From Paramecium tetraurelia (Eukaryota): a DNA stretch of 64,000 nucleotides. The translations under genes were made by a program, and so were the position numbers. The stretch covers positions 62,001-126,000 of the forward strand of contig CT868022.1 in the NCBI GenBank assembly GCA_000165425.1, in the 5' to 3' direction. Below, one piece after another: positions 24,734 through 62,684 of the stretch (position 1 is its first letter; each line of letters starts with the position of its first letter). The notes under the pieces are model-generated. The model worked only from the letters and a program-made list of their open reading frames with translations, searched no databases and was not told where the DNA came from.

Positions 24734-24791
24734 ATAAATGTTTAAATTTTAATTATTACTATATATATTTGATAAAGTTTATGTCAATTTA

Positions 24792-27147: not shown

Positions 27148-27365
27148 TAATGAATTTGTCATTCAAAAAATTTAATACTTATCCTTAATCAAATTTTCTT
27201 GTTTTGCTGTGTTCTTAATGTTAATTCACTTCTTGTAGTTTCTAATTGTAACATTTGTTTATTTAATGGAGTATTAATTATTATTTCCGACACCCAAAAA
27301 TATTGTTTGTATTTTTAAATATTGTGAATAATAGTAAATTATTTAATTAACAGACAAATATTACA

Positions 27366-31519: not shown

Positions 31520-32353
31520 TCACAAATCGACTTCTTATTGCATAACTTCTTAGGATGAAGATTGCTCTTCGGATAAAGGAGGCAATCCTTGAACTTCTAG
31601 TTCCCCATTTGGTAACACAATTACTGACTTATCAGCAGTGCAATATAAGATATCCTTGATTCCTCTTTACATTTATTCCTAAGTCAATTGGGAAGCCCCT
31701 TCAATAAAGTTGTCTAACTCCTTGAATTTTAAGAAATAAAATTCTCTTTCTTATTTCAGAGTTTCTATTTGAATAAGTAGATCCTAAATGGAAGGTTACT
31801 TTTTTTGATATGGTTCAATATGGGCAAAAGAATTGGTCTTTGGGATGCTGGTTGATTATATCTGATTGGGACTGCCAAAGGTGTCTCTTCTTACACTAGT
31901 TCTTGATCTTTCTGGATTTCTTTTTGGTATAATAACTGGTTAATCATCTAGATCTACATTTCCTCTTTTGGCTTAAGGGTCGTAGTCTTTGGGTACAACA
32001 TGTTAATCCATGTATTTCTTTAACCATTAGAGAAACTCCAGATTATCTTGATATTTGCATTTCGTTAACTTTTCTATTTCGATAGGTTTTTGGATTCCGA
32101 GTTTGGAGAATGCTACTTGGAGAACTTTGAAATTATTAACAAACTCGTATTCTTGTTTAGCCTTCCAATTAATCTTACCAAGGGCAACTATAATGTTGAT
32201 AGGGAATAAATACTAACCTTTTCCAGGGTGAACGGCATCGACTAATTGGCAATAGACTGCTCCTGTTCCCAGTTGCTCAATCTTTTGGAGGGAGAGTTTC
32301 AATGTGTCATTAACCCATTATAATAGTTCTGCTCTTGAAATTTCTGTATTCAT
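31520..32353 (-). CDS. EB1: EB1/MAPRE microtubule plus-end-binding protein
   Basis: CH domain [31 protein letters not shown]...[11 protein letters not shown]...[18 protein letters not shown] region [13 protein letters not shown]...IKDILY; 30-nt intron. Confidence 0.95.
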
Positions 32354-32357
32354 ATTA

Positions 32358-33406
32358 ATGGGAAATAAAATCTAAATCCAACTCAATTCAAAATTCTATT
32401 TTCCGAACTAAACTGTACAAGGTATGTGTCAGATCTATTAGAGGAATGGTGATTATAGAGGATTCTTAAGATACTTTGAAAGAGTTTTCTAAACTGTATA
32501 TTCATCTACAAGGTGAGGAGGCTTGGGATAAAGGCTTTGAGTGTCTTGAATCAAATGATTTTAATATCTTCCATTCTCAATTTAAGTTGCTTAAAGACAT
32601 CAATGAGGAACGAAACCCAGAGGATTTGAAATTGAAGATCTAAAAAACGATCGCAATTCCATTCACTTATGCATTACCTGACAACATCCCTGGTACAATG
32701 AAAAGAGATAAGGGTTATAAACTAAAGATCGATTACTCAATGTCTTTGATTGCTGAGACGTTCTAATTGGATAGGATTGTCTTGAAAAAATTGCCAATCA
32801 TTATAAACCAATATGCAGTGAGGCAAAATATCAGTCGAAGCATATCTAATAGTCATGCCATGCGAGGATTTTGGCATACTTATCAAGGAGTATTATTTAG
32901 AATCGATATTAGATTTCTAAATTGGAATGCAAATATAGCGGTGAAGAATTTTCGATTGGTGATTCAATCCACTTGGAATTGTCGGTTGATCTAAGGGAAA
33001 GCAAGCAATACATATAGGAGATCGTGATTTCATTGAATAAGAGGACCACTATCAATGATAGAGAACCCAAGGTTATCATAGAATAAATTTCCAAACATCA
33101 TTTGCCTGGGATTGTCTAAGGGATCGTTTAGACAATCAAAAAATCTATTGTGCTCTTTGATTTCAACAACAAAATAGAACTATCAACCACTGGATAATTA
33201 ATTAAGGTGGATTATTTAATTAGGATACAAGCCTATTCAACATTATTCAACCTCAATAATAATGACTTAAGAATAGATATTCCTATCAATTTATTCCAAA
33301 GGAGAATCAAATAAAACGATTTAAAGTTTGAAACCAACCAGATTTAAGATCTATTCCATCTATATGATGTAAATATTTTAATAGTTGTTAGGTCGTAAAA
33401 CTATGA
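32358..33406 (+). CDS. Arrestin-fold (alpha-arrestin-like, Arrestin_N + Arrestin_C) protein 1
   Basis: MGNKIQIQLNSKFYFPNQTVQG, LYIHLQGEE, IPFTYALPDNIPGT, KIDY, FSIGDSIHLELSVD, STTGQLIKVDYLIRI, DIPINL; three 22-23-nt introns. Confidence 0.82.
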
Positions 33407-35449: not shown

Positions 35450-37483
35450 TCAACAGGTGAGTAGATCTTGAAGAATATTTTGAGCGTCAAGAACTGTTTG
35501 TTCAGATTCCTTCATTCCTTAAACAACATCAAATTATAAGAATCCATGAGGCATCCATTTATACTCAGTAATTTTAATGTCTTTTCCTAATTTCAGTAAT
35601 TTATTGGCTAATCTAAAACTCTCATCATGCAATGGGTCATTAGTACCTAAGACAATTCTAGTTTTAGGAAATCTTGAAAGAATTTCATCACTTGCAATTG
35701 ATGGTGACATCAAGGGATCTGATGCTGCATCAAATTGTTATGGAACATAAGATGATATACACAGTTTCAATACAGTATGGTGCAATAATGGGTCATTTAA
35801 TGAAATCAGTAAACTGGGAGTAAATTGCTTGATATCCAAACATAATGCAGGATATGCCATTAAAATGCCATCGGGGATTCTTGCCCCAGATTTAATGATT
35901 TAAACCGTCAAAGCAGCCACTAAATTACCACCAGCACTATCACCAACTAAGACAACCTTCTTTGGCTTAACATTGAAATACTTATCAATGTAGTTCATTA
36001 TGAACATATAGGCCTACCAGCAATCATCTAAACCAAAGGGATAAGGACTCTCTGGAGCCTTTCTGTAGTCGATCGAAAATATTGGCACTTATAAATTTTT
36101 AGCCCATTTTCTAGTGTATGTTTAATGTGATCTGGATGACATACTCACAAATCCTCCTCCATGGATATGAATAATTATCCTGTCAAATACTTTTTACCCT
36201 TGTATCAGCTTTAGAGAGTGCTATACAAAACTGTCAGTTTGGATCTCTTGTAGATTATAATGACATAAGATTCTAACAGGTATTCTTTCCTTATTTTTAG
36301 TAAATAACTCTGGACTCTTTGGTAAGTTTGTATTTACACATTCTCCACAATCATTTTAAATGTGATTAATGTTGTTTTCCTTGTATTATCGAAGTATGTT
36401 GTCTTCTACTAACCTTTTAAAGAGTTATGGGATATAAATCTTTTTGTTATAAGTAATCATGGGAAAGAGAAGTGGTAATAATTTACTAAGAAAACCGCTT
36501 TCTCCCAAATTCCAAGCTTTAAATGCCAGATTCTTATTTGGTTCAGCCATAAAATGATCAGCCTTCAATTTGGCATCCTTTTTGGCTACCAAATAATACA
36601 ATGCTCCAAATCCTTACATCACATTCTTAGCAGCCTCATTACTAAACTCAGATCCCTTTGAAATCATGGCATTGGCCAACAATATACCTTCAGCCACTTT
36701 CCCATAAGATTTTGATATTTATTCTCTTGAACCCAATAGGACTTCCTGAGTAATACTATTTAAACTTTACCATCTATAGTGTCCTCTATCGAAGCAAAAT
36801 ATATCATTGATATCCAAATTTGCAGCTCCTGGCAATTGTTCAAGACAGGTTTGCAATTTAGATAAGTAAATTACTAATTGTCTTAACTCTTATTTCTCTC
36901 TTCTCACTTCGATGGTTTCAAACAATACTAAAATTTATGATAGAATATGAGTGATTGCGAATTCCAACAATATGCACACAGACTTTTCATTGAATTTCTT
37001 TTTATTCACATTTATGTTATATTCTTCATTGATTGATTTACTCATGATGTCCTTATCATTTGTGATAAGTCCAATTTGTTCTAATTATAAGATTCCAATA
37101 AATGTGATCTTTATAGCTTAGAAAAATCTGGGAAGGAAATTGGCTACGGCATTAAATTTTTTGGTCAAATCAATAGCCTTCAAGTGAAGTTTATTTAAAA
37201 GATCATAGGTTTCACTTAGGTTTTGATATAGTTCTTTAGTTATGGCTGCCGAATTAAAAATGGGGCAATTCCAGACTTGCTCCTAGATCTGATTGATATC
37301 TTGCTATTAAAGTTATTATTGATTTTGTTTAAATTCCCCTTGATCCTAATTCCATTCTTATTGCATTTAGATTTATTATTCTGCTGATTCTGATTACTCT
37401 TCTGTACGTAATTCTAGTGTAATGTCCTGCGTTAGATTCCCCATAGACATACAAGATTTTATTTGATCTTCAATTGACTACAT
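35450..37483 (-). CDS. Hormone-sensitive-lipase-family alpha/beta hydrolase
   Basis: IIIHIHGGGFV oxyanion motif, SIDYRKAPESPYP, LVGDSAGGNL nucleophile elbow, GTNDPLHD and MPHGF (Ser-Asp-His triad); long N-terminal extension. Confidence 0.92.
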
Positions 37484-37531
37484 TTAAATTGTTTTTTTTA
37501 TATTATATTATTATCGATTGTATTTGTCAAT

Positions 37532-38919: not shown

Positions 38920-41900
38920 ATGAGAAAAGTAGAGTCATTCAAATACATTGAAGATGACAACAACCAGAAATAGATAGCATAGAGTCAAGTGGATAACAAT
39001 CAGTTATTTTATTTATTTATGGTAGCCATCATCCAAATGTGCATGAAACACCAGAAAAATTCAAGAACTCAAGTTTTGACAGAGGTTACAAATAACGATA
39101 GGGTTCTTTTGAATAATTTAATCGAATTCAATTTCACGAGTAAAATAAGTATTGATTGTGTAGGGAAACATTCCCATAGGACACCAATTATGAGAGGAAT
39201 TTTGATAATTCAAAAATGTCTGAATATTCACTCCAAAGCATCGAAAGAGATGATATGGTTGAAGACAGAGTTAATAATCACACACTTCATAAATCAATCC
39301 ATGTCTATTCCAAATTTATATCTTCAGCCTCCCATCAACTCAATATGCAATAAAAACCAGAGCCAGATCCTGAAAAACCAGGAATTGCTATGGATCTTCT
39401 AAATGCATTAGATCACTAATAAGAGGTAGAACCTGAACATTTTAATGATATCGAATACGAGAAAATCACACGTAGGCATAAAAAACTAATACAAAGGAAC
39501 ACCATGAAAGACCCATACTATGTTAGATTGGTGAAATTATCGGATCTTCAAAGATTAAATTATGAGTTGCAAGTAATTTTTTTCATTTATTTAGAAATAT
39601 AATGACAATTTACTATTCTTAAATCTCCGAAAGAGCTTTATATATCTCATATACAGTATTCCAATTATGGCAAGAAAAATAGTTAACAATTTTTTATTTA
39701 AAATTTTGATGACTTTCCTCATCTTATTTAATGTGGTATTGTATATTGTTGTAAAAACAAACGGAAGAACAGATACTGATAACATAGAGGAAGTAGTTAT
39801 GATACTATTTATTTCTGAAATAGGCTTAAGAATTATAGCAAGTGGAGTGTTTTTTAATGATTATGCATTTTTTAGAAATATGGAAAACATCTATGATTTT
39901 GTACTGATATTCTTCACTGCCATGAATCTTTACTACCCTGAAGTCATCATTATCGATATATCACCTCTAAGATTGGTAACATTATTGATGTATCTTACAA
40001 ATATATTCCAGGGATTGAATGTAATGATGACTGCCCTGAAATAATCATTTAGATACTTGGTCGAAGCATTGATGATAGTGATACTATTTTCATTGATATT
40101 TGCATCAATGGGTATATTTCTATTCCAAGGTTTGTTCAATTACAGATGCCAATATGAGAATGGCGATGAAACTGAAGGTTGGATATAATGCAATTAAGGT
40201 CAGTGTCCCTCCGATATGCATTGTATGTATAGCGATTACACTCCCAAAATGCCAACATCTTTCAATAATTTGATTGGTTCTTTAGGATAAATTCTACGGA
40301 CCATTACTATGGATGATTGGAGTTGGGTGATGTTTTTTACAATGAGGATATTTCATCCCTGGGTTTGGCTCTATTATTTGTTGATAATCTTTATTGGAGG
40401 GTTCTTTGGATTCAACATAGTTATTGCAGTGTTGAAGGTTCATTATTCAGAGGCAACGGAAGAAAATAAGAAAAGAGAAGAGGTGAAGGAAATTTAGAAG
40501 AGATTGAAGGAGGAAGAGGAATATCCAGAGAGAAATTTAATAGAAATACTGGATGTTGCACATTTGAGAGAAATTGGTATCTATAAGGTGATCAAGAAAT
40601 ACAGAGCCAATTTAAATGAAGCATCCTTTGTCAAATATTCTATTGAAGACCCTTCTAGCTTTAAGAAGTCATATCAAACTGAAAGAACGTTGTCAGCCAA
40701 ATAAAAACAAATGGAAAGTGGCATCGTTAAGTTACCTTTTATTGAATATATAACCAGTTTCACTTGGAAGAGATTCCTACTACCAAAATTTGATTTCTTA
40801 GATGCTTTAACTAAGAAAATCAAAATAATCAATTATACTGATAATGAATTTAATATGAAGGTTATTGAAAGGTTAAAAACCATAAAATTTTCCAGATTAT
40901 AACCCTAAGTGAATAAGGATGTCAAGCAGAATTTTAGTTCTTAGAATGAAGTCTTACTGAGATTTATGTAATTATTGTTCTATTTATATATAGTGATTAA
41001 TAGGATTTAATTCAAAAGGAAAAGCATTTTAATCTAGAAAAGATAAGATCCACAAAATTCAAGATGGTTTATCATCAGGTGAAAATTGAAAAGGAAAAAC
41101 TGTATGGCAAGACTCAATTTGCAAGGTCAAGTTTTCCTACAAAGAGCAAGGCCTCATCTCCCTTTCTAAGCATCTATCAAAAGAAAGCTGAGTAGAGCAC
41201 AGATTCAATTATTAATTTTGAGAAGGTTGAGCAGAAATTGTTTAATAAAATGAAAGCCTCTTAGATTATAGAAACGTAATATAAAGAATTCTCCATTTTC
41301 AAAAATGGATAACCTTGTATATTTGTATAGGGATATTACTTAAATTACAAAAGAGTTAAAGAAAAAATTAATTAAAAAATCCCCTTAGTAGTTCACGATC
41401 AGGTGTCAAACAAATTCAAATATTAAGGTATGAGAATGAAGGAGTACTAAAACCACAAAACTATTACCAAACATAATTGGTCTGGTAAAGATGTACTTGA
41501 AATCAATAAAAAGAGATTGCTGTATTTTCATATAGTTTTATCATTGCTTAACAAAGTAGACATAATTATTTGGATTAATGGAGTAAAAGGACTGTATATA
41601 ATGTCATAAAAATATGCATACATAATAGCTACTAGCAGATTTAGTTAATTCTTTTTTGATTTAGTAATTCTTAACAATTTTACATTTCTATCACTCTAAG
41701 GAATTGTTGATATCAATATAATATCAACAGTGGAAGATATCTCGACGATATTTTTATGCTTTGAACTGGTGATGAGATTTTTGGGTTTTAGATTCAAAGA
41801 TCTTTTAAGGTCTCCTGATTTAATATTATAATCTGTTATTGTGATCATCAACTTTTTTGAATTGACTATCAGTGATTATATGACAACTTATTTAAGTGAG

Positions 41901-44900
41901 TAGAATTTGAGATTGATTAGAGGCACCAAATGTTTGCTGTTCTATAGATGTCTTAAATATAACAAGATGGCAATCACAATTGGTCATATTGCTTCTATGA
42001 CATTCGATTAATACATCTATTTGGCTTTCCTCATGTTTTTAGTGATATTCATGTATGCTCTGACTGGAATGGAAATGTATGTAGGGGAATTCGATTAAAA
42101 TGATTCCCTTGGATAATTACATTCTTATGAGAATATCTTTAAATCCTTTATGACAATCTTCAATATTATGACAAATGATGATTGGTATGGTGTTTACGTA
42201 ATTGGAAGTGACATTGATTTTACATTCTCCATCATCTACTCATTTTCTATGGTTCTAATTTTAAATTATCTAACTTATGGTTTGGTTATGGCCGTCTTAT
42301 TGGATGGATTTGGAAAGTATTTAGATCAACCGGTGGAGGAAATCCAAAATGAAATGCAGAAGAACATTAATGAATAATTGTAGCATATTACACAGAACTC
42401 TGATGAGATACAAATGTAATTAGTTGAGACTGTTCAGGAATCCATATATACGAATAAAAATATGACCAACGAGGAACTCAATAAATCTAAACCCAATTTA
42501 ATCTACAACTTAATTAAGTCAATAAGTAAATATTACACTCTAGTTATTTTTAGAATAAATTAATAGAAGACTGTTATCAAGAACACCAAAATTATATGAG
42601 GGTATTGAATGTGAATCATCCCTGTTCTTATTTGAGAAAGACAACCTATTTCGTATTGTATTGACTCACATTACTACATCCATGATCTATGTCTACCTAA
42701 TGGACATCGTTACATATCTGTCTATCATTGCTTTCATCCTTAAAACCTATAATGATTACGAAACAGATAGCGAATCATATCCAGACACTCTGTAATTCTC
42801 ATGCAATATAATTCAATTGGCAGATACAATATTTAATGTAATTGCAAAGGGATTGTTCATGGACAAAGGATCCTACTTGGTATCCACATTCTAAGTTTTT
42901 GATTTTATTTATCAGGTTTCGAATATCATAGCATTTGGTAGTAACCCTGAAGATTTCAAACCAATTCTCAAAATCCTACTCTATTTAGGCTATTTCAGAC
43001 CGATGAAATTGATGTATAGATTGAGTTGGCTAACAAATTTAAGAGAAGCCATTGGAAGATCCTTATTTGATATTTTCAATGTCTTGATTACTCTATTGTC
43101 AGTGTGGATAATGTTTGGAGTGTATGGCATAATACTGTACGAACAATAATTTGGGTATTGCGAAGATAAAATGCTTTTTGAAGTGAATAAAGAAACCTGT
43201 CTAAGCGAAGGTAAAATCTGGGTGAATTACAAACATAATTTCGATAACATTACTATTGCCATTCCCACTTTATATGTCACAGCCTCTTTGGATGGATGGG
43301 GGGAAATCTATTAAATTGCAGAGAATAGTTAAGTAGCTTCAATAGGTCCTTAAGGATTTAATTCATATGTGGTTACTTACATCTTCTTCCTACTTTTTGT
43401 GTTCATAGGTTCGATGTTCTTCTTGAGTCTTTTCACAGGAGTGCTTTACACAAATCTCAAGAAAAATCAGAAGGAAATTGAAAACACTGAAGTCACACAA
43501 TCACAAAAGGAATTTAAAGAAATTTCATCCATGTTAATAAAGGACTTTCCAGAATTCTCAACTCCACCCACTAGTGGAATAAGAAAGATATCTTCTGATA
43601 TTACAAGTAGTGCAACAATTTAGAAATGTTTGTTTCTACTTCTGTGGGTCGATTTCATTATCCTATTGATGTTCACATCAGACATGAGTGATGAGTACTT
43701 TAGAACTATAAATGATTTCCATAATGCATTAAGTGGGATCTATCTAGTTTGGGTAATCCTATTGTTTTTGGCATTGGGAATGAATAGATTTTTTGATAAT
43801 TCTTGGAGAAGATTTTATTTCTTCTTAATAGTGATTGCAGTCATAGATTTCATTGCAGATTATTCAGTGGATTGGATAATGATCTATTACAAGTCAACTC
43901 CTAATGATAGTGGGTACTAATTGCTTCGATTGTTTTTCTCCTTAAGAAGTCTAAGAATTATATTGATATTCTAAGGATTTATCAATTTACAAAGATTGAT
44001 AAATGTTATTCTATTTGCTTTGCCTTATTTGGGCAAGATCTTTTCTATTTTGATAATCACTATGCTAGTATTTGCTTTATTTGGTTGTCAGCTATTTGGT
44101 ACAATAGATAAAGGATAGGTGTTGGATGACTAACTTAATTTTATGACAGCTGCTAGTGCTATGATAACACTCTTCAAATGTGCATCAGGTGATGATTGGA
44201 GGACAGTTATGACAGACACAATGCATTACAACCCATTATGTTGGGAAGATCCTAAATATTGTGGATCATTTGCTAGTCAAATCTACTTCTTCTTATTCAT
44301 GTTCTTTTCCACTTATGTTCTGTTAACACTCTTTTTGTTAAGTTTGGTAGAACAGTTTGAATCCTTTTTCCAATTATAAGACTCACCCATTCAATCATAT
44401 GTAGAAAATATTGATAAAATTAAAACTATTTGGTGCAAGTACTCCTCTGAAACACAAGGATAAACCATGCATTATAAATTCTTATGCAAATTCCTATTAG
44501 ATATTGGCAAACCTCTTGGCGGAGGAGAGGAAGAGAATCTTTGGGATGTTGCTAAGATTGCATCATCATTTAAATTAAAATGGTAATTAGTTTAGATTTA
44601 TTTATAGTGATCTTCATGGTTACATTCAATACAATCAATTGATTTATGAATTGTTCAGAGTGAAATTCCATGCTGACGTGTTCAAGGAAGGTAGTCACGA
44701 TTCTATCAAATAAATTAAGTAGTTCAACAAAGAAATGCAATTACGTTTGATGTATTACAGGAAAAACAGACATATCGAAAGATCGAACATCAGTTCGGCA
44801 CTTTAATTAAAAGCTAATTTCAATATTCTCCATGATTATCTTACTGTTTTGATTCTCTTTAAAACTTGGGAATCATATAGCAGGATCCTCATAAGAAAGC

Positions 44901-45223
44901 TATCAAACAAATAGAATCAATTTTCAGACGACGCTATATCTAGACATACTGAACTAGAATAGAAGTAACTATTCCAATATTTTATTATTAGTGATAAGAA
45001 CAATGTAAATGACCTAATGGAACCAGAAGTGTTGGAGCCATCATGTGAAGAGGCGACTGTCAATTATAATTTTGATAACAAAAAACATCATCACACTAAT
45101 GAAAGTTAAAATTAATCAAATATTGAATTGCCAATCTATCAAGGAGCTTCGCCCTTCTCCATTCAAGAAGAAGATGTCAAAATAATCCTCTCTGCAGTGG
45201 GTGAAAAGTAGCCCATTTTGTGA
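38920..45223 (+). CDS. Four-domain (4x6TM) Cav/Nav/NALCN-superfamily cation channel alpha subunit, paralog A
   Basis: Four Ion_trans repeats with P-loops RTITMDDW (40312), IMTNDDW (42177), TASLDGW (43291) and CASGDDW (44191). S6 motifs such as GGFFGFNIVIAVL. DIII-IV linker TQSQKEF and EF-hand-like C-tail IKTIWCKY...DIGKPLG; several tiny introns. Confidence 0.93.
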
Positions 45224-45900: not shown

Positions 45901-48900
45901 ATGAATACAGAATGTTCAGTATTATTTCATGTGACTGTAAGAACAACTCTTTCTTAGGTTGTCGGAGTAATTGGTAACTAAGAAGAATTGGGGAGTTGGA
46001 ATGAGAAATGCTTGTGCATTCTAAAAACAGATCCTTAAATATTTCCAAAATGGGTGGCTGAAAAACCAATAGCATTTAAGCAAGGTAAGGTGTTGTGATT
46101 GATTTAGGGACTAAGTTGGAATTTAAATTTGTGATTTTAGATAATGGGACAGCAATTTGGGAAGAATTACCTCAGAATCGAAAGTACAGGTGCAGATACT
46201 GGAAAGTAATATTGACGGCCGATTGGAATAATTACGAAGGGAAGGAATATATTGAAAAGAGATTCAAGTCGAGTGTGTGTTTGGATCAGGAGATATTGAG
46301 TTAATATACTAAGCCAAGATTGAGTGATCAATTTGATCCATTCAATTAGGCCAATGACGATTCGGAGGATTCCGTGGATGGGTTTGATAGTTTTGCAAAG
46401 GAGATAGCAAACAGAAACGATTCAGAAAGCTCGGAATCGGAGGAGGACAAAAAGAAACCAACTGTGGAGCTAAATAAGGATAGCGAATTTTCATCGCTTT
46501 ATTAGTTGTATACGGAGAATCCCAAATTCAGACAGCTGAAGAATTTTAGTTAAAATGACATTTTATATGAAATAAATGATGACCCTTTGATTGGACTTAG
46601 TGACGAGGATTCATTACTAATATCAACATATTATCTACCTATTGTTATAATTAAATAAACTGATGGATCTTACTAAAGAAGTAATTTCCAGCACTCATTT
46701 AGTTTGCATTTGCTATTTGGAGTTCAATAATTTAAAAGAATTTGGTTTGGATTGCCTATCGTTTTGAATGAATTAGGAGAGAAGATTACTGATCAAAGTG
46801 TGGAATTAAAGAACTATTTAAAACAGTTTGGATTTGTTCCTGTGTTTGTCAATCAGGAATGTTTGGATTATTTCAACAAAGAATTCTGTAGTAAACTATA
46901 TTAAGCCATTATGAACAATGATGTCAGTATCACAAAACTAGCAGCCCTTGAGTATTCAGATTACATGCAAGAATGCTTTAAAAAACTGAATGATGAATTT
47001 TTTCAAGAAATTAAACCTCACATCAATCAACATTCAATTGCATTGATAGCCGATTATAGATTGTTATATTTGAGTCAAATCTTTGTGAATCACAAATTTA
47101 CTAGATTGCCTTTAGTGATCTTTTACAATAGATTGTTCCCTCATTTAGATAATTTGAAATTGATTCCATTTTTCCATGAAATCATAAACTCATTTCTACA
47201 TGCCAATGTCATTTGTTTTAGCAATTATAAAACTGCAAATGAATTCTTAACTGTTATGAAGGATATCTACAAGGTTGAGTATCACTCATTCAAAGGCAAT
47301 TTAGCATTCCACTATTATGGAAGAGAAATCTTGGTGAAACTACAAAATCCAGGCATAGAACTCACAGCTTGTGGAGAAAAACGCTACGAAATAGGTGAAC
47401 TTCATTATGACAAGGTAGAAAATGATAACGAAATAAAAATAGTGGGAGTTGATACATATGGACACCAATCAGGAGTTGAATTGAAATTTAGACATCTTCT
47501 CAAATTCATTAAGGAAACTGATATCATCTAGAAGAATCCTCATATCAAATACATACAGATTCTCTTGAAGGCCTTTGAAGATCACGACATTAATGAGCAA
47601 AGAGTCTCATTGCTCAATCAGATCGAGCAAATCAATTCTTATCTGTACCCCAATAGAGACAACTACTTTGTCAAATTGATCGAAGAAGAAATGGATTCTA
47701 AACATCGTTTTAAAGTATTTGAAAAGGCTAAGATATATCTGCAATGTAAATATAGTGGTAGACACGACTTTTATTTATCAGAGTATATTCATTTAAACAA
47801 AATGCCTATTGCTTTGATTAGTGATTCAAGTTGTTATCATCGTGGATTTCAATCCATTGTAACATTCAATGTGTTTTCACATATTGATTTTAAAGAGAAG
47901 TTTGCAGATTTATTAATAAAAGTAATTAACAAACAATATTAATTCACTTAATTGCACAAACTTAAAGTAGAGAAAGATTAATTGATAATTCGACAAAACT
48001 AAACATCTTAATGGATAGAAAACATTTTTATTGATGCCAAGAAGGCTGTTTCAATGCTCAAATTTGCTTAGATTAGTCTACGTTTTCAAGATGGATTGAT
48101 GATTAAAGTGGCACATAATTTGAAATTTCAGCATCTGGATATCTAGTCTGTAGCAAAAGCATATTAGCAATCAACTAAGCCAATCATCATAATAGAGTTT
48201 GAAACTATTGTTACAGATTAATACTTTATTGATTACAAACCCAAGCATTTTCTTTAGCAGAGTCCTCATTTGAAGGGGAATGAGGAAGCAGTTATGATTA
48301 GATAAGTCGAATAAGAATTATTGAATAGGATTAAGGAATTGTCAAAAACGAATAAAGTGTATATTGTATCAGGTGGATTATTTAATGAATTGTCTTCTAT
48401 TTTTAGTGGCTACAATATAAGCTTATTTGCAGAAAACGGGTTTTTGTATAAATCAGACTAATTGCAATGGAATGCCCTATTTAATTTGGATTATTAATGT
48501 CTGATTCAGGTAAGGAAGATATTCAATTAATATGCCATGAAAACAGAAGGAGCCTTGATTGAATCCAAAGAAAGTTCAATAAGCTTGAAACTTATGAATT
48601 CAGATGAATACGTTTAATAGCTGATATAGGATCTAGTTGAAAATGTCTAAATGATAGTGGATAGATACCCCACATTCTAATTAATAATAGGATCTCATTC
48701 AGTAGAGGTAAGTCCTAAAAATCTAAATAAAGGAATGATTTTGGAAATCATTATGCAGAAGGAGAATTTATAAAGAGGCAAATTGGATTTTGCTCTTATT
48801 ATAGCAAGAGGGATACAAAACGAGGATATCTTCTCTCACTTTAAGGTTATTACTTAGAGTAGAAAGTATTTTAGTGAAGTACATTTATTATGGTATCTAA

Positions 48901-51872: not shown

Positions 51873-54800
51873 ATGAAAAAAAAGGAGAGTCCGCTCTTTG
51901 GCATAGATAATCCTCTCTATAGTTAGAATATCTCGTCTCCTCGATCTTAGGAACTACTACCAATTTACTCTAATGAAAATGAGCATGAGCAGCCAATGGA
52001 TGAAGCATTGAAAGAAAAGAGAAACATTTTCGAAAGAAATAATTTTAGGGCATTGAAAGACGGGCAAAAATAAGAAAGTTCTGAGGAAGATCTTTATTTG
52101 AGTAGCGTCAGGTAAATTATTAATCGGATCATTTAAGTGATAACAGATTTGATTAAGAATCTGTAAAATCAAGAACAAATTCCTTAATTCGCCACTAGAG
52201 AAGTGTTAGTATTTAGAAAAATCAAAAGGGAATTTTCAGCCCTTTGTAAAAAGTGAATACTGGATTAATAATTGATTCAACATACAATTTATAAGTTTAA
52301 GGAGTAAAATCAAGTTCCAAAATTGATAAATACTAGAGTTTTGTACAATAATTTGAATTGGAAGAAGACAAAATGAGAAAGAATAAGGAATTAATCTAGC
52401 AAAAGAGTAATCAAACTAACGAGCTTTCATCCAAAAAGGAATAGCGGAATAAATAAAGGGAAAATTGGGTAAAAATTATAGTGATTTACAGATTTAATGA
52501 ATGTATGGGCAGCGAAGGGGTTTATAATAATACGATTAGTATCCAGATTTATCTAATAGCTTAAGACAAAAACCGAAACCATAAAGTTTAGACTGCTAAC
52601 AAGGAAAATATTTTCCGTCATTGGAGATGTGTCTAGTAATTTTGAATTTATCTTAATTTCTCGTTAAATTAAGTAATAGCCTAGTTTAGTATTAAAAATC
52701 TAATTTGTTAGTTTTTAATTTTGAAATATAATTTTCAGAAAAGAGCGACGAGACTACTACATTGTTTGGAAAATTGTTAAGATTTCTTAAGCAGGAATAT
52801 CATTGTAATAAGACCAGATAGCAAATTCAAAATAATTTGGGATATTTTGTTATTGCTTTTCATTGTGATGAACATATTTTACATCCCCATAAACATCAGT
52901 TTCAATATTTCAACCTCAGGTGTGTTTGAATACTTATTTGATTTGCTGCCATCATGGATTTTTGTTGCTGAAATCATTATTAATTTTAATACTGCTTATT
53001 ATGATAAGGGATTAATGCATGAAGATAGAAAGTCAATAGTGAAACATTATTTAAAAGACAATTTCTTTTGGGATTTAATTGTAGTAATACCATTTTTAAT
53101 GTCTAATTTGGATATACCATTCGTTAGATATACCTTATTACTTAGATTGACGAGGTTGGCACCATTAATGGAAAGCATTGAAGAAATGTTGAATTTGGAG
53201 GTATGAATAAATAAATATGATGAGGAAAATATACAAATTGTTGTTGATCTTTTAAAACTTATCTTTTTTCTTGTTTTGACAGGTCACTTCTGTGGATGTG
53301 CATGGCATTTTGTTGCCTTAACAGAATATGAATCATTTGGTATTACAGATAATTGGCTAACTCATTATGACCGATAGGCCTTTGATTATCATTGGTTTGA
53401 CAGATATATCATATCTCTTTATTGGAGTGTAATCACAACAGTTACAGTTGGCTATGGAGATATAGTACCTGTCACAACGTTTGAAAGGATATTTGTAATC
53501 ATTGTAACGCTATTGCTTTGTGGAGTGTTCGGTTATTCAATTTCAAATATTGGCAACATTTTTAAATAGATGTCCGATAAGAAGACTATCTACAAATTTA
53601 AACTACGCCAAATTCATTCGCATATTAGAAAAAGAGGTCTCAATTTAAATCTATCATTAAAGGTAAGAGCTTCTTTAATGTCCTAGGTGAAGAAGTATTT
53701 TGAGTACTTTTTCCAACTGGAACAAGAAGAAGACAGCCACGCAGAAATATTCATCAGTCAATTAACCAAACATTTAAGAGAGGAAGTGTTGACTGATTTA
53801 TATTGCAATACGCTTAAGAAGTCAAGATTCCTTAGAGAAAACTTTAAAGAAATAACCATCAATAATTTATGTCAATATGTTAAGGAGAAGAAAGTGTTGC
53901 CTGAAGAGGTTTTGTATTCTCGATTCGATCAACCTAGGAAAGTTTGGTTTATACTTTCAGGAGCCTTGGAATTTGTAGCAGATCACAAGAGTAATTTAAA
54001 TATATGAATTTTACTAGATGAAAATGATTATTATGAAGCCACTGAAACTTTTCTCAAGAAGGTCAGTTCTGGGTAATGCATATGTATCTAATTTTAGAGC
54101 AGTATTAGGAGAGAGAGAGTTCATCACACAGCAGCCATATGAATACAAAGTAAGGGCTTTAAAATTCACATAAATGGCATATATTGAGTACTTATTTATT
54201 TGAAGTTTTCAATAGTTATGAGGATTTCATTAATGTAATTAGCGAGAATGATACAGAATATGAAATATTTTGTATGAAGAGAGATAGATTGTTGTTTAAT
54301 CCTTAATTTAAAGGATCTGGAAATGTATGCGAAATTTGTGAATGGACTCATAACTTCATTTAGTAATTATCTAAAATTAATTGGATTAGATGCCCATTTG
54401 TATTCTTGTAACCTAACTTCAATAAAATATCCAGTCGTTTCACTTCAGTTAGATTAAATAATAGAATCAAATTTCCATATCGTAATACAACGAAATCAAG
54501 AACGAAAGAGTGTTTGAATAGTATATAAGAAGGAGCACTAAAAATAATCGTTGGCAATTTATCTGAAGAGTAAATCAATTAAGTTATAATAGAGAATATA
54601 CGGACGAATATTTAATATCTTTAGGATTTTAATTGACTTAGAATATGGAAATTGATTCTTAAAATGATGATGAATCATCCAAAAATTTAAATGATTCTCA
54701 ATCACCCACAATTACCGAAAAGCAAAGGTTATTTTAGAAGAAATGTGCAAAAACAATGTCTGGAGTTGCTACTATGGATTTTAAAGATGTTAAAGAAACA

Positions 54801-55788: not shown

Positions 55789-58700
55789 TCATTTCATCTT
55801 TTAAATTCTGTGCGAATGATAAATCTTCTAAACATCGCCCTCTTCAATTCCAGAACTACTAGTTTTATACAATGCAGGCTTAGGCTAATAATAGAAAGAT
55901 ATCAAATACATTAATATAATCTCCTGCCAAATAATCATTTACCTAACCTTATAATTGAACTCTCTTATTTCTCCCTAACCCTCTTTTTTAATATATAGGA
56001 GGATTGTCATTCAATTATATTTTAGATTCCTAACTATCGATGCTTTTCTGTGTTACTGAATGTTTGATTGGTTCAGTATCCCTAACTGTACGTTGTGAAA
56101 AATGTTGTTATTAAGTGATGATGTTGCCAATTATTTAACGAGCGTAAGACTTCCACAATTTGAAAGTAATTAATGTTATCAATAGAATATGCAAAATGTT
56201 GCCATTTCCATCTAATCTAAGTTATGGTCCAATGTTAGTCCTTCTCTGTCTTAATCCGCCTCTTCTATAATAGGCTAATCTAAATTGAACTGTCTTATGA
56301 AATTAATTCATCTTTCTTGCAGCCATTACAGAGCATTACTCAAAGATTTGTTGCTCATATCTATGATAGAAAATCTCATATAATAATTGATTGTAGGATA
56401 TGTTATCTTGCATATCGCAAAACAGATTGAATTGTAAACTTAGTTTAGCAGCATCCCACAAATTATCATAGGGTTTACATCCTAGAGGTTCTTTAATTTC
56501 AATCAATAAATGAGGCAAATATCTAATACTCAACACCTGCCCATTTTAACTAGAAAACTTGAACCATGCCTTTCTAAAAGAATCAATATTTTCTACGTAT
56601 GTTTAAAGGACGGAGTCTTAATTGTTGAAAAAGAATTCAAATTGCTCAATCATGGCCAAAATAAATAAATTCAAAAATGTGTAATTAGATATCAGCATAA
56701 AAGAGATAAAATAGATTTGGGCATAGGGTGAACCACAATATTTAGGGTCTTCTGAACAATAGGGGTTGTGATGCATACAATCATTCATTATGGAACGAAA
56801 GTCATCACCACTAACACATTTGAAGAGGGTCAACATGGCTGACCAAAAGTTTGAAAAGTTAATCAAATCATTAATTACCTCTCCCTTGTCTATGTTTCCA
56901 TATAACATAATTCCATAAAATGCATATACAATCATTATTAAGAGAAGTATGAAAAGAATCTTCAACATAAATGGAAATGCAAAGTACATAACTCTTACCA
57001 ATCTTTAGAGATTCTACATTTTTTGAAATATGATGATAACTCTTAAATTTCTAAGAGTGTACAAAACTCTTAACAATTAATAGTGCTATGTTAATTGAGT
57101 TGAATTGCTATATACGTGAAACCAATTGTATTCGTAGTCAAGAATCAAGTCTACAACCCCCAAAACAATTACAAAGGAAGTATACAGTCTCCATAAATTA
57201 TCTTTGAATCTATTGATCCCCAAAATCAAACATTGAAGCAGCAATTAGCCAGCAAAAACCGAAGAACAAATGTGATGAATTGTATTTATTTAATCATTAA
57301 AATCATGCTCACCTGTATGATGAATCATCATTATAGCAATGCAATTCACTAGCAGAACACAAAATATGAATGCATCAAAATATTTGTTCATGACGAGAAT
57401 ATTTAATAACCTTCTAAATTAAGATTTAGGAATTTAAGCTCTGATAGGATGATCGCGTAGAATGATTTCTGACACCTATATATAATCCAATTGAGCCTAA
57501 GTTAATTATTGGTTTTCAATTTGCTTAGAATTAGCTTTTAAATTGATAAATAATACACCCGTAAATAACTGTAAGAAAAACATGGCTCCAATTGTACAAA
57601 ATGCAAAATAAAAAAGATATGCTGGAATTTAGCTGAAATACAGTTGCGGACCATCTGAAGCCATTCTGCTATTCTAAGACACCCATAAAATTGAACTCCA
57701 TCCATCAAAAGTTGAAATAATGAACAAAGTAGGCATTGCAGTAGTAATATTATCAAAATTATGTTTATAAACTCTCCATTCTTTTCCTAATCTTGTACAC
57801 TCACCCTAACCAACATCATAATTGGTTTATTCCTCACAAAATCCCATTTTATCTGAAAACAGCATCATCGAAAATACAGCGAACATCAACCATACAAGAA
57901 GTAATACTACGAATACGTTGATGATATCAAATAATGATTAAGTTATAGCAGCCCTTACTCTGACCACCCATTTTATCCTATAAAGTAATTTCAAAGGTCT
58001 AAAAAATAGAAAAGTCTCTATCACCATAAAAATAGGAAGATGAACAATCTAGAATATTTCAATATAATAAACCAATATGTACACCAAATCAACCACCTTC
58101 CAAGTATACTATTAGATAAAAATTTATAAATACGTTGAGGTATGATCCATTATCCATGAATGCTCCAAAAGCGATTGATTTGATTACAAATTCAATAAAA
58201 ATTACTGAATTCAAAATAAATAATGCAGTAACAAACTATGGTTGTTGCTAAATATCTTATGGGAGTGTTAAATAAATAGTAGTGAGGAATAATGTTAAAT
58301 CAATAAAATATTTTGTATAGTTGCTCAAACTAATTCTATAGAAGAACTATCTCAAAGAATTTGATTTACTAAAATAATAGAAGGATTAAACGCAATCAAC
58401 TCCTTAGTACATCTTTAAATTATGTTTAAACATTTTTTTGGAGATTTGTTCAACCTTCTCTTTTAGATATTTTATAGTTTTTGATTCTGAACTTTTCAAT
58501 CTATGCATATTAGTTTTGCTCTTTAACCTACTGAAATCCTCTTTGATTTTCTTTCTCTCTTCATCATTTGGGTCGAATCTTTTAGTTATAGCTGAATGAA
58601 ATAGTTACTAATCAAAATAGTTATCTCTTTTGATTTATACTAAAATATTGTTTGCAGATGCTTGAACATTGTCGTTGGATTCGCTTTCCTATAATCTCTT

Positions 58701-61700
58701 ATTGAGAAATTGTGGTTAATATTAATATTATTTAACAGATGAAGAAGAGGAGTTTGAATCAGATTCGGATTCTGAATCATTTTCCGAAAGTTCTGAATCT
58801 AATTTTTTGTTTAATTTATTTTTTTATTTGATCTTTTCTATCATAAATTCATTCTGTTCGTTTGTAGATTCTCTTTCTAAGTATTGACTAAATCCATCCA
58901 ATAATATTGCCATCATGATGCCAAATATAAAATAGTTAAGTGTAAACACTAATGCTATAGAGTAAGTGATCGATAATTCTGTCTGCACTTCTGTCCCAAC
59001 TTTATAAACTCCAAACCAATCATCATTTGTCATTATATTAAATACAGTCATAAATGCTATTATTGGATCATCGAATGAATGCATGTAACCATTTTCATGG
59101 TACTTATCCAATTTGTTACCATACAACTCCATTCCAATCAAACCAAATGTCAAAATCATAAAGAACATCAAAAATGCCAAGTAAATATAGGATTTGTAAG
59201 TAATTTATGCAATTGCCCCAATTATTCTAGCCATCTAGATATAAGCTATGCATCTATAGAATAATAGACACTTTGTAGATCTCATCAATTTTAAGTATTA
59301 TTCGCTTAGATTCAAGTAGTCACTAAACCCAAATTCAATCACACCTAAAATAACAACAAGTAGTTCTATTACAAAATATTTATTTTTGGCTATTCTTCCT
59401 AATATCACTATAATAAATTACTTGGTTTATGCACTATCAACTAAAATATAATTTCAATAGATAATAATATAGTGGCAATATCTTCTACTTGACTAATTAT
59501 CTTTCTCTTGATTATACCCTATGAAGCCAAAAAAAATGTATTAATAAGAATTGTTAAATCAAAAAATAATTTAGTTAGTTTGAAATGCATTATTTTAAAT
59601 GAGTATTTCTGTAAAGTTATAAAAATTCCACTTAAGGATATCTACCAAATTTGAATGTTTCTTTCATTTAATTGTTGAAAAATATCATCAAATTTTTTAA
59701 TTACAATTTAATTGTTTTTCAAAACATTGTTGCCAGACCAAATTTTCGATTTTATGTATTTTTTCTTAATCTCTTTTCTCACTAGCTTTTTGTATTCCTC
59801 TTAACACCTGGGTTCCTTTTGCTGTTTAAAATTAAAATTTGCATTGATTCTTTTCACTGCCTCAACATAATCTAAATATGTTCCATTTATTAGCACTTTT
59901 AACTAACCCTAATCATTTATTGTAAATGGTTAGCCTAGAGAATATTCAGGAATAACTGAGTATCCTCTCATGAAATAAGGAAACATTCTTCGTTATTTTT
60001 CAACATCTTCTTTTATATGAATTTCTCTATTGTTTTAAGAACAGGAATCTGAACTTTATTTTTTGCCATGTATCTCCGATTTGTTTTCATTCTCCTTTTT
60101 CATTCTATTTGAAGTCTTCATTGGCAATTAAGCTAGAGATTTCTAGACATTTGAAGGAGAAGTCTCTATCTCTTCTAATTTACTAGATTTTCTATATTGA
60201 CTTTAAACTAGCTATTTTTTCTTTTAAATCGGTTTGTAGTATAAGGTCTTCTTTTTCAATCTTTTAGAATTTTAAAATGGTGTTTTTCTTAAAACTTGAA
60301 AAAGAGATTTCCTTAAAACATCCAAATGGCTTGTCTATACATAATTGTATTTATAATCTATATATTTTTCCAGTAAAAATGAGGATCTACTAAATTTCTT
60401 AATTGTTTCTTAAATTTTAGGATTTGAACTAAATATCTTAATATCCAAGTTCAGAAAATATTTCTATATAATTTAAAATTTGGGTAGAAGTAGCAATTTC
60501 AAAGAAAAGTTCTTAATTTAATTCTTTATTTGTGTAAAATTACTTATGTCTATTCTATTCTCATTGATCATACTTCCTAATAAAGGTCGAAGCTGCCCAC
60601 CACTATATTGTTGTACTCCATTAATCAGAGGTTCATTTATCAAGATATCATTTGAGTTTGAAAATAGGAAAGTATTCATTTATTTTATGAAATCATACAG
60701 TCCTATTCTCTTCAAATTCGATTAGCTAATAAACTTCTCCTTTTTATCTGGTTTTACTATCTATCTAAATTACATTTCACTAAAATGAATCTTGAATACT
60801 GCAATGGGAAGATTAAATCCGAAAAAGCCTCCAACAAATATTATTAGCACATAATAAATCCAAACAATAGGATGGAATGCTCTAATTGTATATTGCATAA
60901 CCCAACTCCAATCATCCATTGTTACAGTTTTCAAAATAAGAACAAATGAATAGATAATGTTATTAAAGTTTGTTGGAATATTATAGGAATGATTTGTTGC
61001 TTGACAAGTAGTTCCATCTGGACAATGACCTTGTCTACATTATATCCAGTCTGATTCATCTGATGGTAAGCATCTTTCATTAAACAAACCCATAAACAAT
61101 GATGTTCCTAAAGATGCAAAAAATAGAACAAATAATATAACAATTGCCGTTGATTCTAACATAAATTTTAATGATTCTATTAATGCGTCTATCATTTTTT
61201 ATAATCCTTGGTATACTAAATGTAATTTACCTGCAAAAATGAATCCTAGATGTTTCAGCAATCTTGTCATTCTTAACGGAGTGATATCTAATACAGCTGA
61301 AAAATACATCAGATGATAGTAATATAGAATGATTAAAGATGCATCAATTACTCTTGAAATAAAGATGAATTTCGTACGAAACAGTCCAAAAGCTAAAAGT
61401 TATAATACTATATCAACTACGTAAAACCAGAAAAACGCTATATTCTAATTTATAATAATTACTAATATCAAATTCTGCAAATCGATTATCTTTATCGTAC
61501 ATATGCTCAAATACAAAAATTACAATGTTACTCAATGTTACTAAAGTCAAGATATATTAATATAATCTTGATCTCACTATGATTTTAGAGATCCTCCTAG
61601 TAACTAAATATAAATATAGGAAGGTTTTTCTCAATTTTAACATTTTGTACCTATCCATATAAGAGCTCTCAATTATTTCTTATTATTACATAAATCAAAT

Positions 61701-62684
61701 GATATTTTTTAAAACTTTGGAGTTTTCTATATTTTATAAATTATGAGCCATCATTACAATTTATTCTTTAACAAATTTTCTCATATTATTTGGACAAGTT
61801 TTATAACTAATCAAAAGCCTATTAATGAATTATTATTTTATTACAGCAATAGAAGATTAGGATTGCGAATTAATTGACGAAGGACCGAATCCGTCGAGTG
61901 AAAGATGTAAATCAGAGACTCTGGGGCACAAATAGGTTGACTTATTTATATTATTGGTTTACACTAATTTCAGCCATTGGAGTTTACATGGAAAACTGTG
62001 GACTAAAACAAAAGTTTTCATTTTGCTATTAAACTATTTACAGATCCTATTTCTCCTTTTATTAAGCACTTGCATTTGATTAGTTATCATCATTTTAAGG
62101 GCTCGAAAATATTTCAGATAATTCTTAATTCTTGCTATTTTTTTAATATTAATTTCTCCTTTTAATAGTCGAGTCAAACTATTCTATCTCTTAATTCAGT
62201 AAGTAGTTATTAAGCGTACCCTTATCAACCATCTTGTCAAATAATTTTTACTAAATTTCCTCCCTAAAAATCATAGGTTACATTACTACTTTTAAGTATC
62301 CTTTTGGCTTTTAGTCTATCTAATTGTTTTCGAGAATACATCTTGTGTTTATTGGTTTAGATTCCTTCTCATTCTTGAAGAAGAATGTGATTTGATTGTT
62401 TTTACAGAATTCACACTTGAATCTGAACTTCCAGATTATATTGACTTTTGGATAGAAACATCACTATCTGATTCTGAGTCAGATATGCGTTTAAGATTGG
62501 CAGGAAATTGATTAGCTTATTTAAGCTCCTGTCTCTCTAATATATTACATCTTTTGATTTATTTGCTCGTCCTTAATTATTTTGGTCTCCTTTTTGGATT
62601 ATCCTCAGATTAAAACGATGTGGTGTTGTTGTTAACAACTATTGTTTTAGAGGGATACCTCTTTCTGGGATTTAGAGATTGCAT
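55789..62684 (-). CDS. Four-domain (4x6TM) Cav/Nav/NALCN-superfamily cation channel alpha subunit, paralog B
   Basis: ATG 62684 (MQSLNPRKRYPSK...). P-loops KTVTMDDW (~60914), IMTNDDW (~59022), ISTFDGW (~57703) and CVSGDDF (~56803). Shares MHxNPxCxEDPKYCGS and GGFFGFNL with paralog A. Stop ...RIQKMK* at 55789. Confidence 0.92.

What the first reader, a model, noticed from the sequence alone, without database searches (positions are those of the whole stretch)
39950..43980. Eroded S4 voltage sensors in the DDDD channels
Seen: the paralog A S4 regions read DI ISPLRLVTLLMYLTNI (a single Arg), DII LRLIRGTKCLLFYRCLK, DIII LKILLYLGYFRPMKLMYR and DIV LLRLFFSLRSLRIILIF. Paralog B keeps R/R/K in DI (ITPLRMTRLLKHL) but is similarly gapped in DIII and DIV. 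Established: voltage-gated Cav/Nav S4s carry 4-7 R/K at every third residue, while NALCN has fewer. Inference: these channels may be weakly voltage-dependent or gated by ligand, mechanical force or auxiliary proteins, and the two paralogs differ in their DI sensor.
Basis: partly seen in the sequence, partly recalled or inferred. Interest (0 to 1): 0.7.

Follow-up and report, generated by a model that had tools for sequence, protein, structure and literature searches.

The report
Charge-poor Paramecium calcium channel paralogs
These are two Paramecium four-domain ion channels whose voltage sensors have lost about 40% of their positive charges; the feature is real but was published for these same two proteins in 2018, and how the channels open has apparently never been tested.

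Summary
Paralog A (38920-45223, +) is identical to XP_001430317.1 and paralog B (62684-55789, -) matches XP_001430323.1 without a mismatch. These are Paramt24 and Paramt33 of Pozdnyakov et al. 2018 (PMC5824947), which prints all eight S4s and defines ciliate subclade Ic: charge-poor S4, D/D/D/D filter, assumed voltage-insensitive. Splicing does not rescue the charges: no intron lies within 370 nt of an S4 of A.

Added here: the losses are in-register substitutions, fixed across 62 aurelia-complex relatives. Both paralogs keep 12 of 20 gating positions (canonical channels 15-20). The erosion is uneven. DII keeps 5 of 6 charges, so it is barely eroded. Losses in S4 and in the S2/S3 charge-transfer centre are complementary: A has no sensor that is complete on both sides, while B keeps one (DI). 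NALCN has about as few charges and is still voltage-sensitive, so the best reading is a Ca2+-permeable channel with weak, DI/DII-derived voltage dependence, stronger in B than in A. I found no functional test. The family is a candidate for Paramecium's somatic Ca2+ currents, for which I found no assigned gene.

The parts
38920..45223 (+). Paralog A gene: four-domain (4 x 6TM) cation channel, 2042 aa, 7 introns (39003-39025, 39140-39163, 39573-39594, 40968-40993, 42526-42553, 44583-44607, 44965-44991); = XP_001430317.1 / GSPATT00032771001 / Paramt24
   Evidence: Model identical to P0284; accession; four Pfam Ion_trans stretches; four of the five introns inside the laid stretch seen spliced in run X4, 40968-40993 not seen
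39787..39897 (+). A, DI charge-transfer centre, complete: E267, F274, E277 (S2), D303 (S3)
   Evidence: aromatic plug plus both inner acids present in 57 of 62 relatives
39970..39999 (+). A, DI S4: 1 of 4 gating positions basic (R328; T331, M334, T337)
   Evidence: helical (model residues 123-137) in the AlphaFold2 model, pLDDT about 86
40312..40317 (+). A, DI filter Asp442, with Asp at +1
   Evidence: D and D in 62 of 62 relatives
41733..41831 (+). A, DII charge-transfer centre, incomplete: E907 and E917 kept, aromatic plug replaced (L914), S3 acid replaced (Q939)
   Evidence: aromatic in 0 of 62 relatives against 17 of 17 canonical
41910..41957 (+). A, DII S4: 5 of 6 gating positions basic, one fixed gap (L975)
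   Evidence: R969, K972, L975 and R978 invariant in 62 of 62
42177..42182 (+). A, DII filter Asp1055, with Asp at +1
42793..42903 (+). A, DIII charge-transfer centre, incomplete: outer acid and aromatic plug lost (Q1251, Q1258); D1261 and D1287 kept
42970..43008 (+). A, DIII S4: two central arginines replaced (L1313, G1316); R1319 and K1322 kept; K1310 variable in the family
43291..43293 (+). A, DIII filter Asp1417 (Gly at +1)
43720..43818 (+). A, DIV charge-transfer centre without inner countercharges: W1570 in place of the S2 Glu, Y1592 in place of the S3 Asp
   Evidence: both acids absent in 61 of 61 relatives, present in 17 of 17 canonical; Trp in 60 of 61
43927..43965 (+). A, DIV S4: 3 of 5 gating positions basic (R1629, R1635, R1638; F1632, L1641)
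   Evidence: 3 of 5 in 61 of 61 relatives
44191..44196 (+). A, DIV filter Asp1717, with Asp at +1
55789..62684 (-). Paralog B gene: same architecture, 2225 aa, 9 GT-AG introns in my model; = XP_001430323.1 / GSPATT00032777001 / Paramt33 (whose public model is shorter)
   Evidence: 0 mismatches to P0242; accession; full model 84% identical to its P. octaurelia counterpart over 2229 columns; 34-40% identical to A
61231..61288 (-). B, DI S4: R, R, K, G at the four gating positions, facing a complete charge-transfer centre
59241..59309 (-). B, DII S4: 4 of 6 gating positions basic
57968..58036 (-). B, DIII S4: 2 of 5 basic, with Glu at one arginine position (charge reversal, 11 of 62 relatives)
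57017..57082 (-). B, DIV S4: 3 of 5 basic; both inner countercharges lost, as in A

Best explanation
A and B are pore-forming subunits of a Paramecium-expanded lineage of four-domain cation channels (published subclade Ic). Shown: intact 4 x 6TM architecture, transcription and splicing, an all-aspartate filter ring with extra aspartates at +1 in DI, DII and DIV, and a fixed, asymmetric remodelling of the four voltage sensors. Inferred: (1) the very acidic filter passes Ca2+, probably selectively; (2) sensors III and IV no longer move much charge, because III has lost two central arginines and its hydrophobic plug and IV has lost both inner countercharges; (3) what voltage dependence remains comes from DII (5 of 6 charges, loosened seal) and, in B-type channels, from DI, the only sensor in the family complete on both sides; (4) so the channels open with a shallow voltage dependence (of the order of NALCN's one elementary charge, not the steep Cav curve), B more than A, and need or are tuned by a second input that is not identified. 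They would serve graded Ca2+ entry rather than the ciliary action potential.
For: Identity with published Ic members. Register counts 12 of 20 for A and for B, against 15-20 in 17 canonical channels. Substitutions, not indels: S4 span lengths are equal in family and canonical sets in all four domains. Charge-transfer centre complete in 57/62 (DI), 0/62 (DII), 7/62 (DIII), 0/61 (DIV) relatives and in 17/17 canonical channels in each domain. Retained charges are invariant (DI R328 62/62; DII R969, K972, R978 62/62; DIII R1319 62/62; DIV R1629, R1635 61/61), which points to selection on the present design rather than decay. AlphaFold2 DI model (45 rows, mean pLDDT 79) has S4 as a helix, and its sensor overlays the Ci-VSP sensor (Z 12.5, rmsd 2.3 A, 115 aligned). 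Precedent: NALCN is voltage-sensitive through DI/DII charges while DIII/DIV charges are dispensable (PMC7182417 passages), apparent gating charge about 1.2 e0, with loss of the DIII aromatic plug offered as a reason (PMC7672056 passages). Filter: Asp at the +1 'beacon' site goes with Ca2+ selectivity in the engineered NavAb mutant and CatSper1 (PMC10120453 passages). Expression: stranded poly(A) reads on the expected strand at low depth, 0-3 for A and 0.1-1.8 for the laid part of B, in three runs of one study.
Against: No current has been measured; every gating statement is inference from sequence. Invariant S4 arginines can be kept for folding or S4-S5 coupling rather than sensing; S4 is also at or near the top of the sensor helices in the canonical control, so its conservation is not special evidence. 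DII's plug is Leu/Val, which may disable it or may be tolerated. In the published table two basal Ic members (Paramt11, Paramt16) have only two basic residues in the DII S4, so DII sensing is not a property of the whole subclade. The 62 relatives come from five sibling species and whole-genome duplicates and fall into 12 clusters at 80% identity: they are not 62 independent cases. The structural model drew on an alignment in which 26 of 45 rows are canonical channels and may lean to their fold.
Confidence: 0.55

Rival explanations
1. The channels are voltage-insensitive. All four sensors are structural only, and opening is controlled by a ligand, Ca2+/calmodulin, membrane tension or a partner protein. 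This is the assumption of Pozdnyakov et al. 2018 and the stronger half of the first reader's idea.
For: A has no sensor with both three or more charges and a complete charge-transfer centre. The aromatic plug is lost in DII in 62 of 62 relatives. The paper lists an IQ-homologous stretch for both proteins and assumes voltage insensitivity for such channels.
Against: The assumption leaned on NALCN, which was later shown to be voltage-sensitive. B-type DI is complete on both sides (13 of 62 relatives have 3 charges). The listed IQ stretch has no Ile-Gln pair. No ligand-binding or accessory domain was found by Pfam in either protein.
Confidence: 0.25
2. The channels are still properly voltage-gated, driven mainly by the DII sensor (and DI in B), as in channels where one or two sensors carry the gating (TPC-type and some Cav channels; recalled, not looked up). 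The other sensors are parked in a permissive state.
For: DII keeps 5 of 6 charges in 49 of 62 relatives and 4 of 6 in the other 13, has Glu at both S2 sites in 62 of 62, and is the best-conserved sensor (S4 identity 0.76 among 12 cluster representatives).
Against: DII lacks the aromatic plug (0 of 62) and mostly the S3 acid (18 of 62), which 17 of 17 canonical channels keep; the fixed gap falls at the fourth position of the series.
Confidence: 0.15
3. The pattern is an artefact of wrong splicing, or the genes are decaying duplicates.
For: Paramecium introns are tiny and the public model of B has evident intron errors. Expression is low.
Against: No intron within 376 nt of an S4 of A; spliced contigs cross the DII and DIII S4s; full-length open frames of about 2000 aa in five species; replacement residues are fixed (L975 62/62, W1570 60/61); pore helices 0.72-0.82 identical among 12 cluster representatives.
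Confidence: 0.02

Closest known systems
Ciliate four-domain channel subclade Ic (Pozdnyakov, Matantseva, Skarlato 2018, PMC5824947); Paramt24 = XP_001430317.1, Paramt33 = XP_001430323.1
   Same: The same two proteins. S4s printed in Table S2, both placed among the 20 P. tetraurelia names at Ic in Fig. S1; subclade defined by charge-poor S4, D/D/D/D and an IQ-like motif.
   Different: The paper describes insertions separating the charges and assumes voltage insensitivity. My alignments show in-register substitutions and add the charge-transfer-centre pattern, which I did not see in parts 1-3 of 5 of the text or in the supplement parts read.
Human Cav1.2 and other HVA Cav channels; Paramecium ciliary CaV1a-c
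   Same: Best solved-structure match by sequence (Cav1.2, E 7e-77 for the 95%-identical P0007); same domain order (each domain profile scores best on the same domain of the outgroups).
   Different: Filter D/D/D/D instead of E/E/E/E; 12 of 20 gating charges; charge-transfer centres broken in three domains. Whether these genes are mentioned in Lodh et al. 2016 could not be checked (paper not held).
NALCN / fungal Cch1
   Same: Similar number of S4 charges; DIII plug lost and DIV sensor degenerate in both. Best functional analogue.
   Different: Much weaker sequence match (E 8e-32 against 7e-77 for Cav1.2); no Lys in the filter; a separate clade in the published tree. The charge loss is convergent.
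CatSper1-4
   Same: Aspartate filter ring and Ca2+ selectivity (PMC10120453 passages); CatSper3 is the top row for the DI model but tied with other single-domain channels (Z 15.6, rmsd 4.3, 261 aligned, against 15.5 and 15.4). Charge-poor S4s in some subunits are recalled, not looked up.
   Different: CatSper subunits are single-domain and form a heterotetramer; sequence match is weak (E 4e-9). Analogy only.

Membership tests
Ciliate FVCC subclade Ic (PMC5824947) | At least one Arg/Lys-poor S4 | tested here: met
   A: DI 1 of 4; B: DIII 2 of 5
Ciliate FVCC subclade Ic (PMC5824947) | Selectivity filter D/D/D/D | tested here: met
Ciliate FVCC subclade Ic (PMC5824947) | Placement in the clade | tested here: met
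   A identical to XP_001430317.1 and B without mismatch to XP_001430323.1; both named at Ic in Fig. S1; family is one clade, support 100, in my quick tree
Ciliate FVCC subclade Ic (PMC5824947) | IQ-like motif in the C-terminal tail | tested here: inconclusive
   The stretch listed in Table S3 is present in both window proteins but lacks the Ile-Gln pair; calmodulin binding not tested
HVA Cav (Cav1/Cav2) | Four homologous 6TM domains in canonical order | tested here: met
HVA Cav (Cav1/Cav2) | E/E/E/E filter | tested here: not met
   D/D/D/D
HVA Cav (Cav1/Cav2) | Four charge-rich S4s with complete charge-transfer centres | tested here: not met
HVA Cav (Cav1/Cav2) | AID motif for the beta subunit | not tested
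   The paper reports AID only in the HVA Cav clade; I did not scan for it
NALCN/Cch1 | Reduced S4 charges | tested here: met
   (NALCN-labelled rows beside the family)
NALCN/Cch1 | E/E/K/E, E/K/E/E or E/E/E/E filter | tested here: not met
   D/D/D/D
NALCN/Cch1 | Closer in sequence to NALCN than to Cav | tested here: not met
   phmmer: Cav1.2 E 7e-77, NALCN E 8e-32; NALCN was not in my tree
NALCN/Cch1 | Dependence on UNC79/UNC80/FAM155 or Mid1 | not testable with these tools
   No whole genome held for this window; needs experiments
CatSper | Single-domain subunits forming a heterotetramer | tested here: not met
   One chain with four Ion_trans stretches
CatSper | Aspartate filter ring | tested here: met
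   CatSper side from PMC10120453 passages
CatSper | Specific structural or sequence kinship | tested here: inconclusive
   Top fold row but tied within 1 Z with unrelated single-domain channels; weak sequence match

The most novel reading that the evidence does not exclude
This family encodes one of Paramecium's classical somatic Ca2+ conductances for which I found no assigned gene, most temptingly the hyperpolarization-activated Ca2+ current of the escape reaction. That current passes Ca2+ but not Ba2+, Sr2+, Mg2+, Mn2+ or Co2+ and is untouched by mutations that remove the ciliary current (PMC2229130 abstract); it has two pharmacologically distinct somatic components (PMC8208649 passage). A seven-aspartate filter fits such strict selectivity, and A-type and B-type channels could be the two components. 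It would mean a Cav-derived four-domain channel whose gating polarity was inverted or rewired by sensor remodelling. Nothing here links these genes to that current; the anterior mechanoreceptor Ca2+ current is an alternative target.
Probability: 0.12. Interest if true: 0.75.

Novelty: already known. Interest (0 to 1): 0.25.

Why it matters
As an observation it adds little: these S4 sequences, the filter and the voltage-insensitivity guess are in a 2018 paper. What remains of value is a test set. The published tree lists 20 such genes in P. tetraurelia, a large share of its four-domain channels, and my searches found no function for any of them, in an organism with RNAi, voltage clamp and Ca2+ currents lacking known genes. 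The complementary loss of S4 charges and countercharges gives a specific prediction (B has one complete sensor, A none) and a natural series for asking how few parts a four-domain channel needs to sense voltage.

Tried and rejected
Mis-splicing: rejected. Insertions between charges, as worded in PMC5824947: not seen for these proteins, span lengths are canonical. Domain swapping or duplication of a single domain: rejected, each domain matches its own counterpart best. NALCN or CatSper orthology: rejected on sequence and architecture; the CatSper3 top row in the fold search is a tie.

Single-sequence fold of DIII-DIV: pLDDT 41, unusable, so there is no model for DII, DIII or DIV. The structure tools return no residue contacts, so the position of R328 against F274 was not measured. 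The tree is the quick one, midpoint-rooted, 29 rows, without NALCN; it shows the family as one long-branch clade with B-type sister to all single-Arg DI types, and does not resolve which canonical lineage is its sister.

Range outside Paramecium: three word-index searches gave close relatives only from five aurelia-complex species; the representative search gave two unnamed fragments at 69% and 42% and otherwise at most 31% identity among the best 150. This is weak evidence on range. No whole genome was held, so partner genes were not sought. No indexed holder of the stretch was on record as RNA.

Literature: eight searches on this family showed no functional study; six gene ids gave 0 papers. 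Subscription papers and most supplements (ciliary proteomes, expression atlases) are outside that search, and Lodh et al. 2016 was not held. Earlier scan findings: none. No complex prediction was run: no partner is proposed.
Full report
What the window is. The DNA is 22-35% G+C, has almost no long frames under the standard code and long ones under the ciliate code, with 22-28-nt GT-AG introns. It holds two four-domain cation channel genes: A on the + strand (38920-45223) and B on the - strand (62684-55789). The 7-intron model of A is identical to P0284, XP_001430317.1, GSPATT00032771001 of Paramecium tetraurelia. B matches P0242, XP_001430323.1, GSPATT00032777001 with no mismatch, differing only in intron and start calls.

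Checking the observation. The proposed refutation by corrected splicing fails. The nearest intron is 376, 569, 417 and 618 nt from the DI-DIV S4s of A. In run X4, contigs lack four of A's five introns in the laid stretch (40968-40993 was not seen, in a bin of depth 2.9), and listed contigs cross the DII S4 ungapped and the DIII S4 with only the upstream 28-nt intron removed. Three stranded poly(A) runs of one study show reads on the expected strand for both genes, at depth 0-3 per bin, against 45-56 for the neighbouring small GTPase gene.

It is in print. Pozdnyakov, Matantseva and Skarlato 2018 (PMC5824947; I read parts 1-3 of 5 of the text, and supplement rows plus parts 3 and 7 of 7; figures and the red marking of Table S2 are not visible to me) define ciliate subclade Ic by at least one charge-poor S4, a dominant D/D/D/D filter and an IQ motif, and assume such channels are voltage-insensitive. 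Their Paramt24 and Paramt33 are the accessions of A and B. Table S2 prints the four S4s of each, letter for letter as in the window, and Fig. S1 lists both among 20 P. tetraurelia names at Ic. Eight searches showed no functional study; the library lacks subscription papers, and Lodh et al. 2016 was not held.

Counting charges in register. I aligned each domain of 62 full-length relatives (61 for DIV; five aurelia-complex species; the database twins of A and B included; 12 clusters at 80% identity) with 17 four-domain channels that I chose from the search hits as canonical controls (ciliate, stramenopile, one fish T-type and nine unnamed; 13 of 17 with E/E/E/E). Gating positions were the S4 columns where at least 60% of the controls have Arg or Lys. 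I added DII 966 (10 of 17) and left out three columns at or beyond the S4-S5 bend (344, 1331, 1644), giving 20 positions. A and B each keep 12; the 63 family rows with four domains keep 10-13; the controls 15-20. By domain, A has 1/4, 5/6, 3/5, 3/5 and B 3/4, 4/6, 2/5, 3/5. The span between first and last position has the same length in family and controls in all domains, so these are substitutions. DII is hardly eroded in S4. Human Cav1.2 was compared only through the phmmer alignment, which puts R328 on the first DI arginine.

The other half of the sensor. The charge-transfer centre (aromatic plug and acid on S2, acid on S3) is complete in 17 of 17 controls in every domain. In the family it is complete in 57/62 for DI, 0/62 for DII (plug Leu or Val), 7/62 for DIII and 0/61 for DIV (S2 acid replaced by Trp in 60, S3 acid always lost). 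The two kinds of loss are complementary. In A-type channels (49 of 62) the one domain with a complete centre has a single arginine, and the charge-rich DII has a broken centre. B-type channels (13 of 62) keep three DI charges facing a complete centre. The quick tree puts B-types sister to all single-Arg types (supports 100 and 96, midpoint root), and the basal Ic members in the published table keep two DI charges, which fits one later loss of the second arginine in the A lineage (inference). Kept charges and several replacements are invariant, and the DI model has a normal six-helix fold with a helical S4, so this is a maintained design, not decay. Against over-reading: S4 is also at or near the top of the sensor helices in the controls, and two basal members lack most DII charges.

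How it most likely works. The filter has Asp at all four sites and Asp at +1 in DI, DII and DIV (62, 60 and 54 relatives). Asp at +1 goes with Ca2+ selectivity in engineered NavAb and CatSper1 (PMC10120453 passages), so Ca2+ permeation is the likely function (inference). On gating, the 2018 assumption leaned on NALCN being voltage-insensitive. NALCN was later shown to be voltage-sensitive through DI and DII charges, with DIII and DIV dispensable (PMC7182417 passages), and an apparent gating charge near 1.2 e0 (PMC7672056 passages). The passages name 4, 3, 3 and 1 S4 charges for NALCN, about the same total as here. I therefore put 0.55 on shallow voltage dependence from DII (plus DI in B), 0.25 on no voltage dependence, 0.15 on ordinary steep gating by DII, and 0.02 on artefact. 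A second input is plausible but unidentified: Pfam finds only Ion_trans in both proteins, the IQ-like stretch lacks the Ile-Gln pair, and the paper finds the beta-subunit site only in HVA Cav channels.

Membership. They are members of subclade Ic by identity. They are not Cav1/Cav2 (filter and sensors fail), not NALCN/Cch1 (filter fails; E 8e-32 against 7e-77 for Cav1.2) and not CatSper (one four-domain chain; the fold-search top row is a tie). They may work like NALCN in gating and like CatSper in selectivity, by convergence.

Novelty and score. The feature, the family and the main inference are already known, so novelty is 'already known' and interest 0.25. The charge-transfer-centre pattern and the prediction that B senses voltage better than A are small additions that I did not see in the parts of the paper read. 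The boldest reading left open is that the family carries a somatic Ca2+ current such as the hyperpolarization-activated one, which is strictly Ca2+-selective and independent of the ciliary channel (PMC2229130 abstract; PMC8208649 passages). I give that 0.12; it would deserve 0.75 if shown, and RNAi with voltage clamp can test it. Other papers seen: PMC6259924 (passages: DDDD named among non-animal filters) and PMC8535419 (passages: ciliary CaV channels need Pawn proteins).

Noticed in passing
window 55789-62684 (-): The public model of B (XP_001430323.1, 1913 aa) looks wrong in four places: it lacks about 300 N-terminal residues, keeps a 24-nt in-frame intron (61207-61230) just after the DI S4, and drops two in-frame stretches of 10 and 11 residues in DIV that six counterparts keep. 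None touches an S4 charge.
   Followed up: partly
The pair was probably duplicated together in a whole-genome duplication.
   Followed up: no
window about 52100-55715 (+): A six-helix K+ channel gene (Pfam Ion_trans_2 and Ion_trans) lies between the two four-domain channels, tail to tail with B; the downstream part looks like a cyclic-nucleotide-binding homology domain (recalled, no call).
   Followed up: no
window 46062-48900 (+): Trehalose-phosphate synthase/phosphatase-like fusion (Pfam Glyco_transf_20 and Trehalose_PPase), directly downstream of A.
   Followed up: no
window 49665, 49725, 49731: In the Ras-family GTPase gene, three sites show a second letter in all three RNA runs (for 49665: 28 of 70, 29 of 99, 44 of 105 reads). 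Most likely reads from an ohnologue; not checked.
   Followed up: no
P0045 / P0046 (not in the window; S4s match Paramt8/9 of the published table): The converse case: P0045 has 19 of 20 S4 charges and complete charge-transfer centres but a filter that aligns as E/S/L/L. An intact sensor on an odd pore.
   Followed up: no
P0191 and P0111 (unnamed): Fragments at 42% and 69% identity to A. By eye P0191 has the DIII filter Asp and the DIV S2 Trp of this family, so the design may reach beyond the five sequenced species found.
   Followed up: no
window 35450-37531 (-): Alpha/beta-hydrolase (Pfam Abhydrolase_3) of hormone-sensitive-lipase type, upstream of A.
   Followed up: no
window about 17150-19400 (+), 23800-24800 (-), 26790-29189 (-), 31520-32428 (-): Frames that look like a membrane H+-pyrophosphatase, a MORN-repeat protein, an AGC-type kinase and an EB1-like protein; names are recalled from motifs, not from a search.
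   Followed up: no
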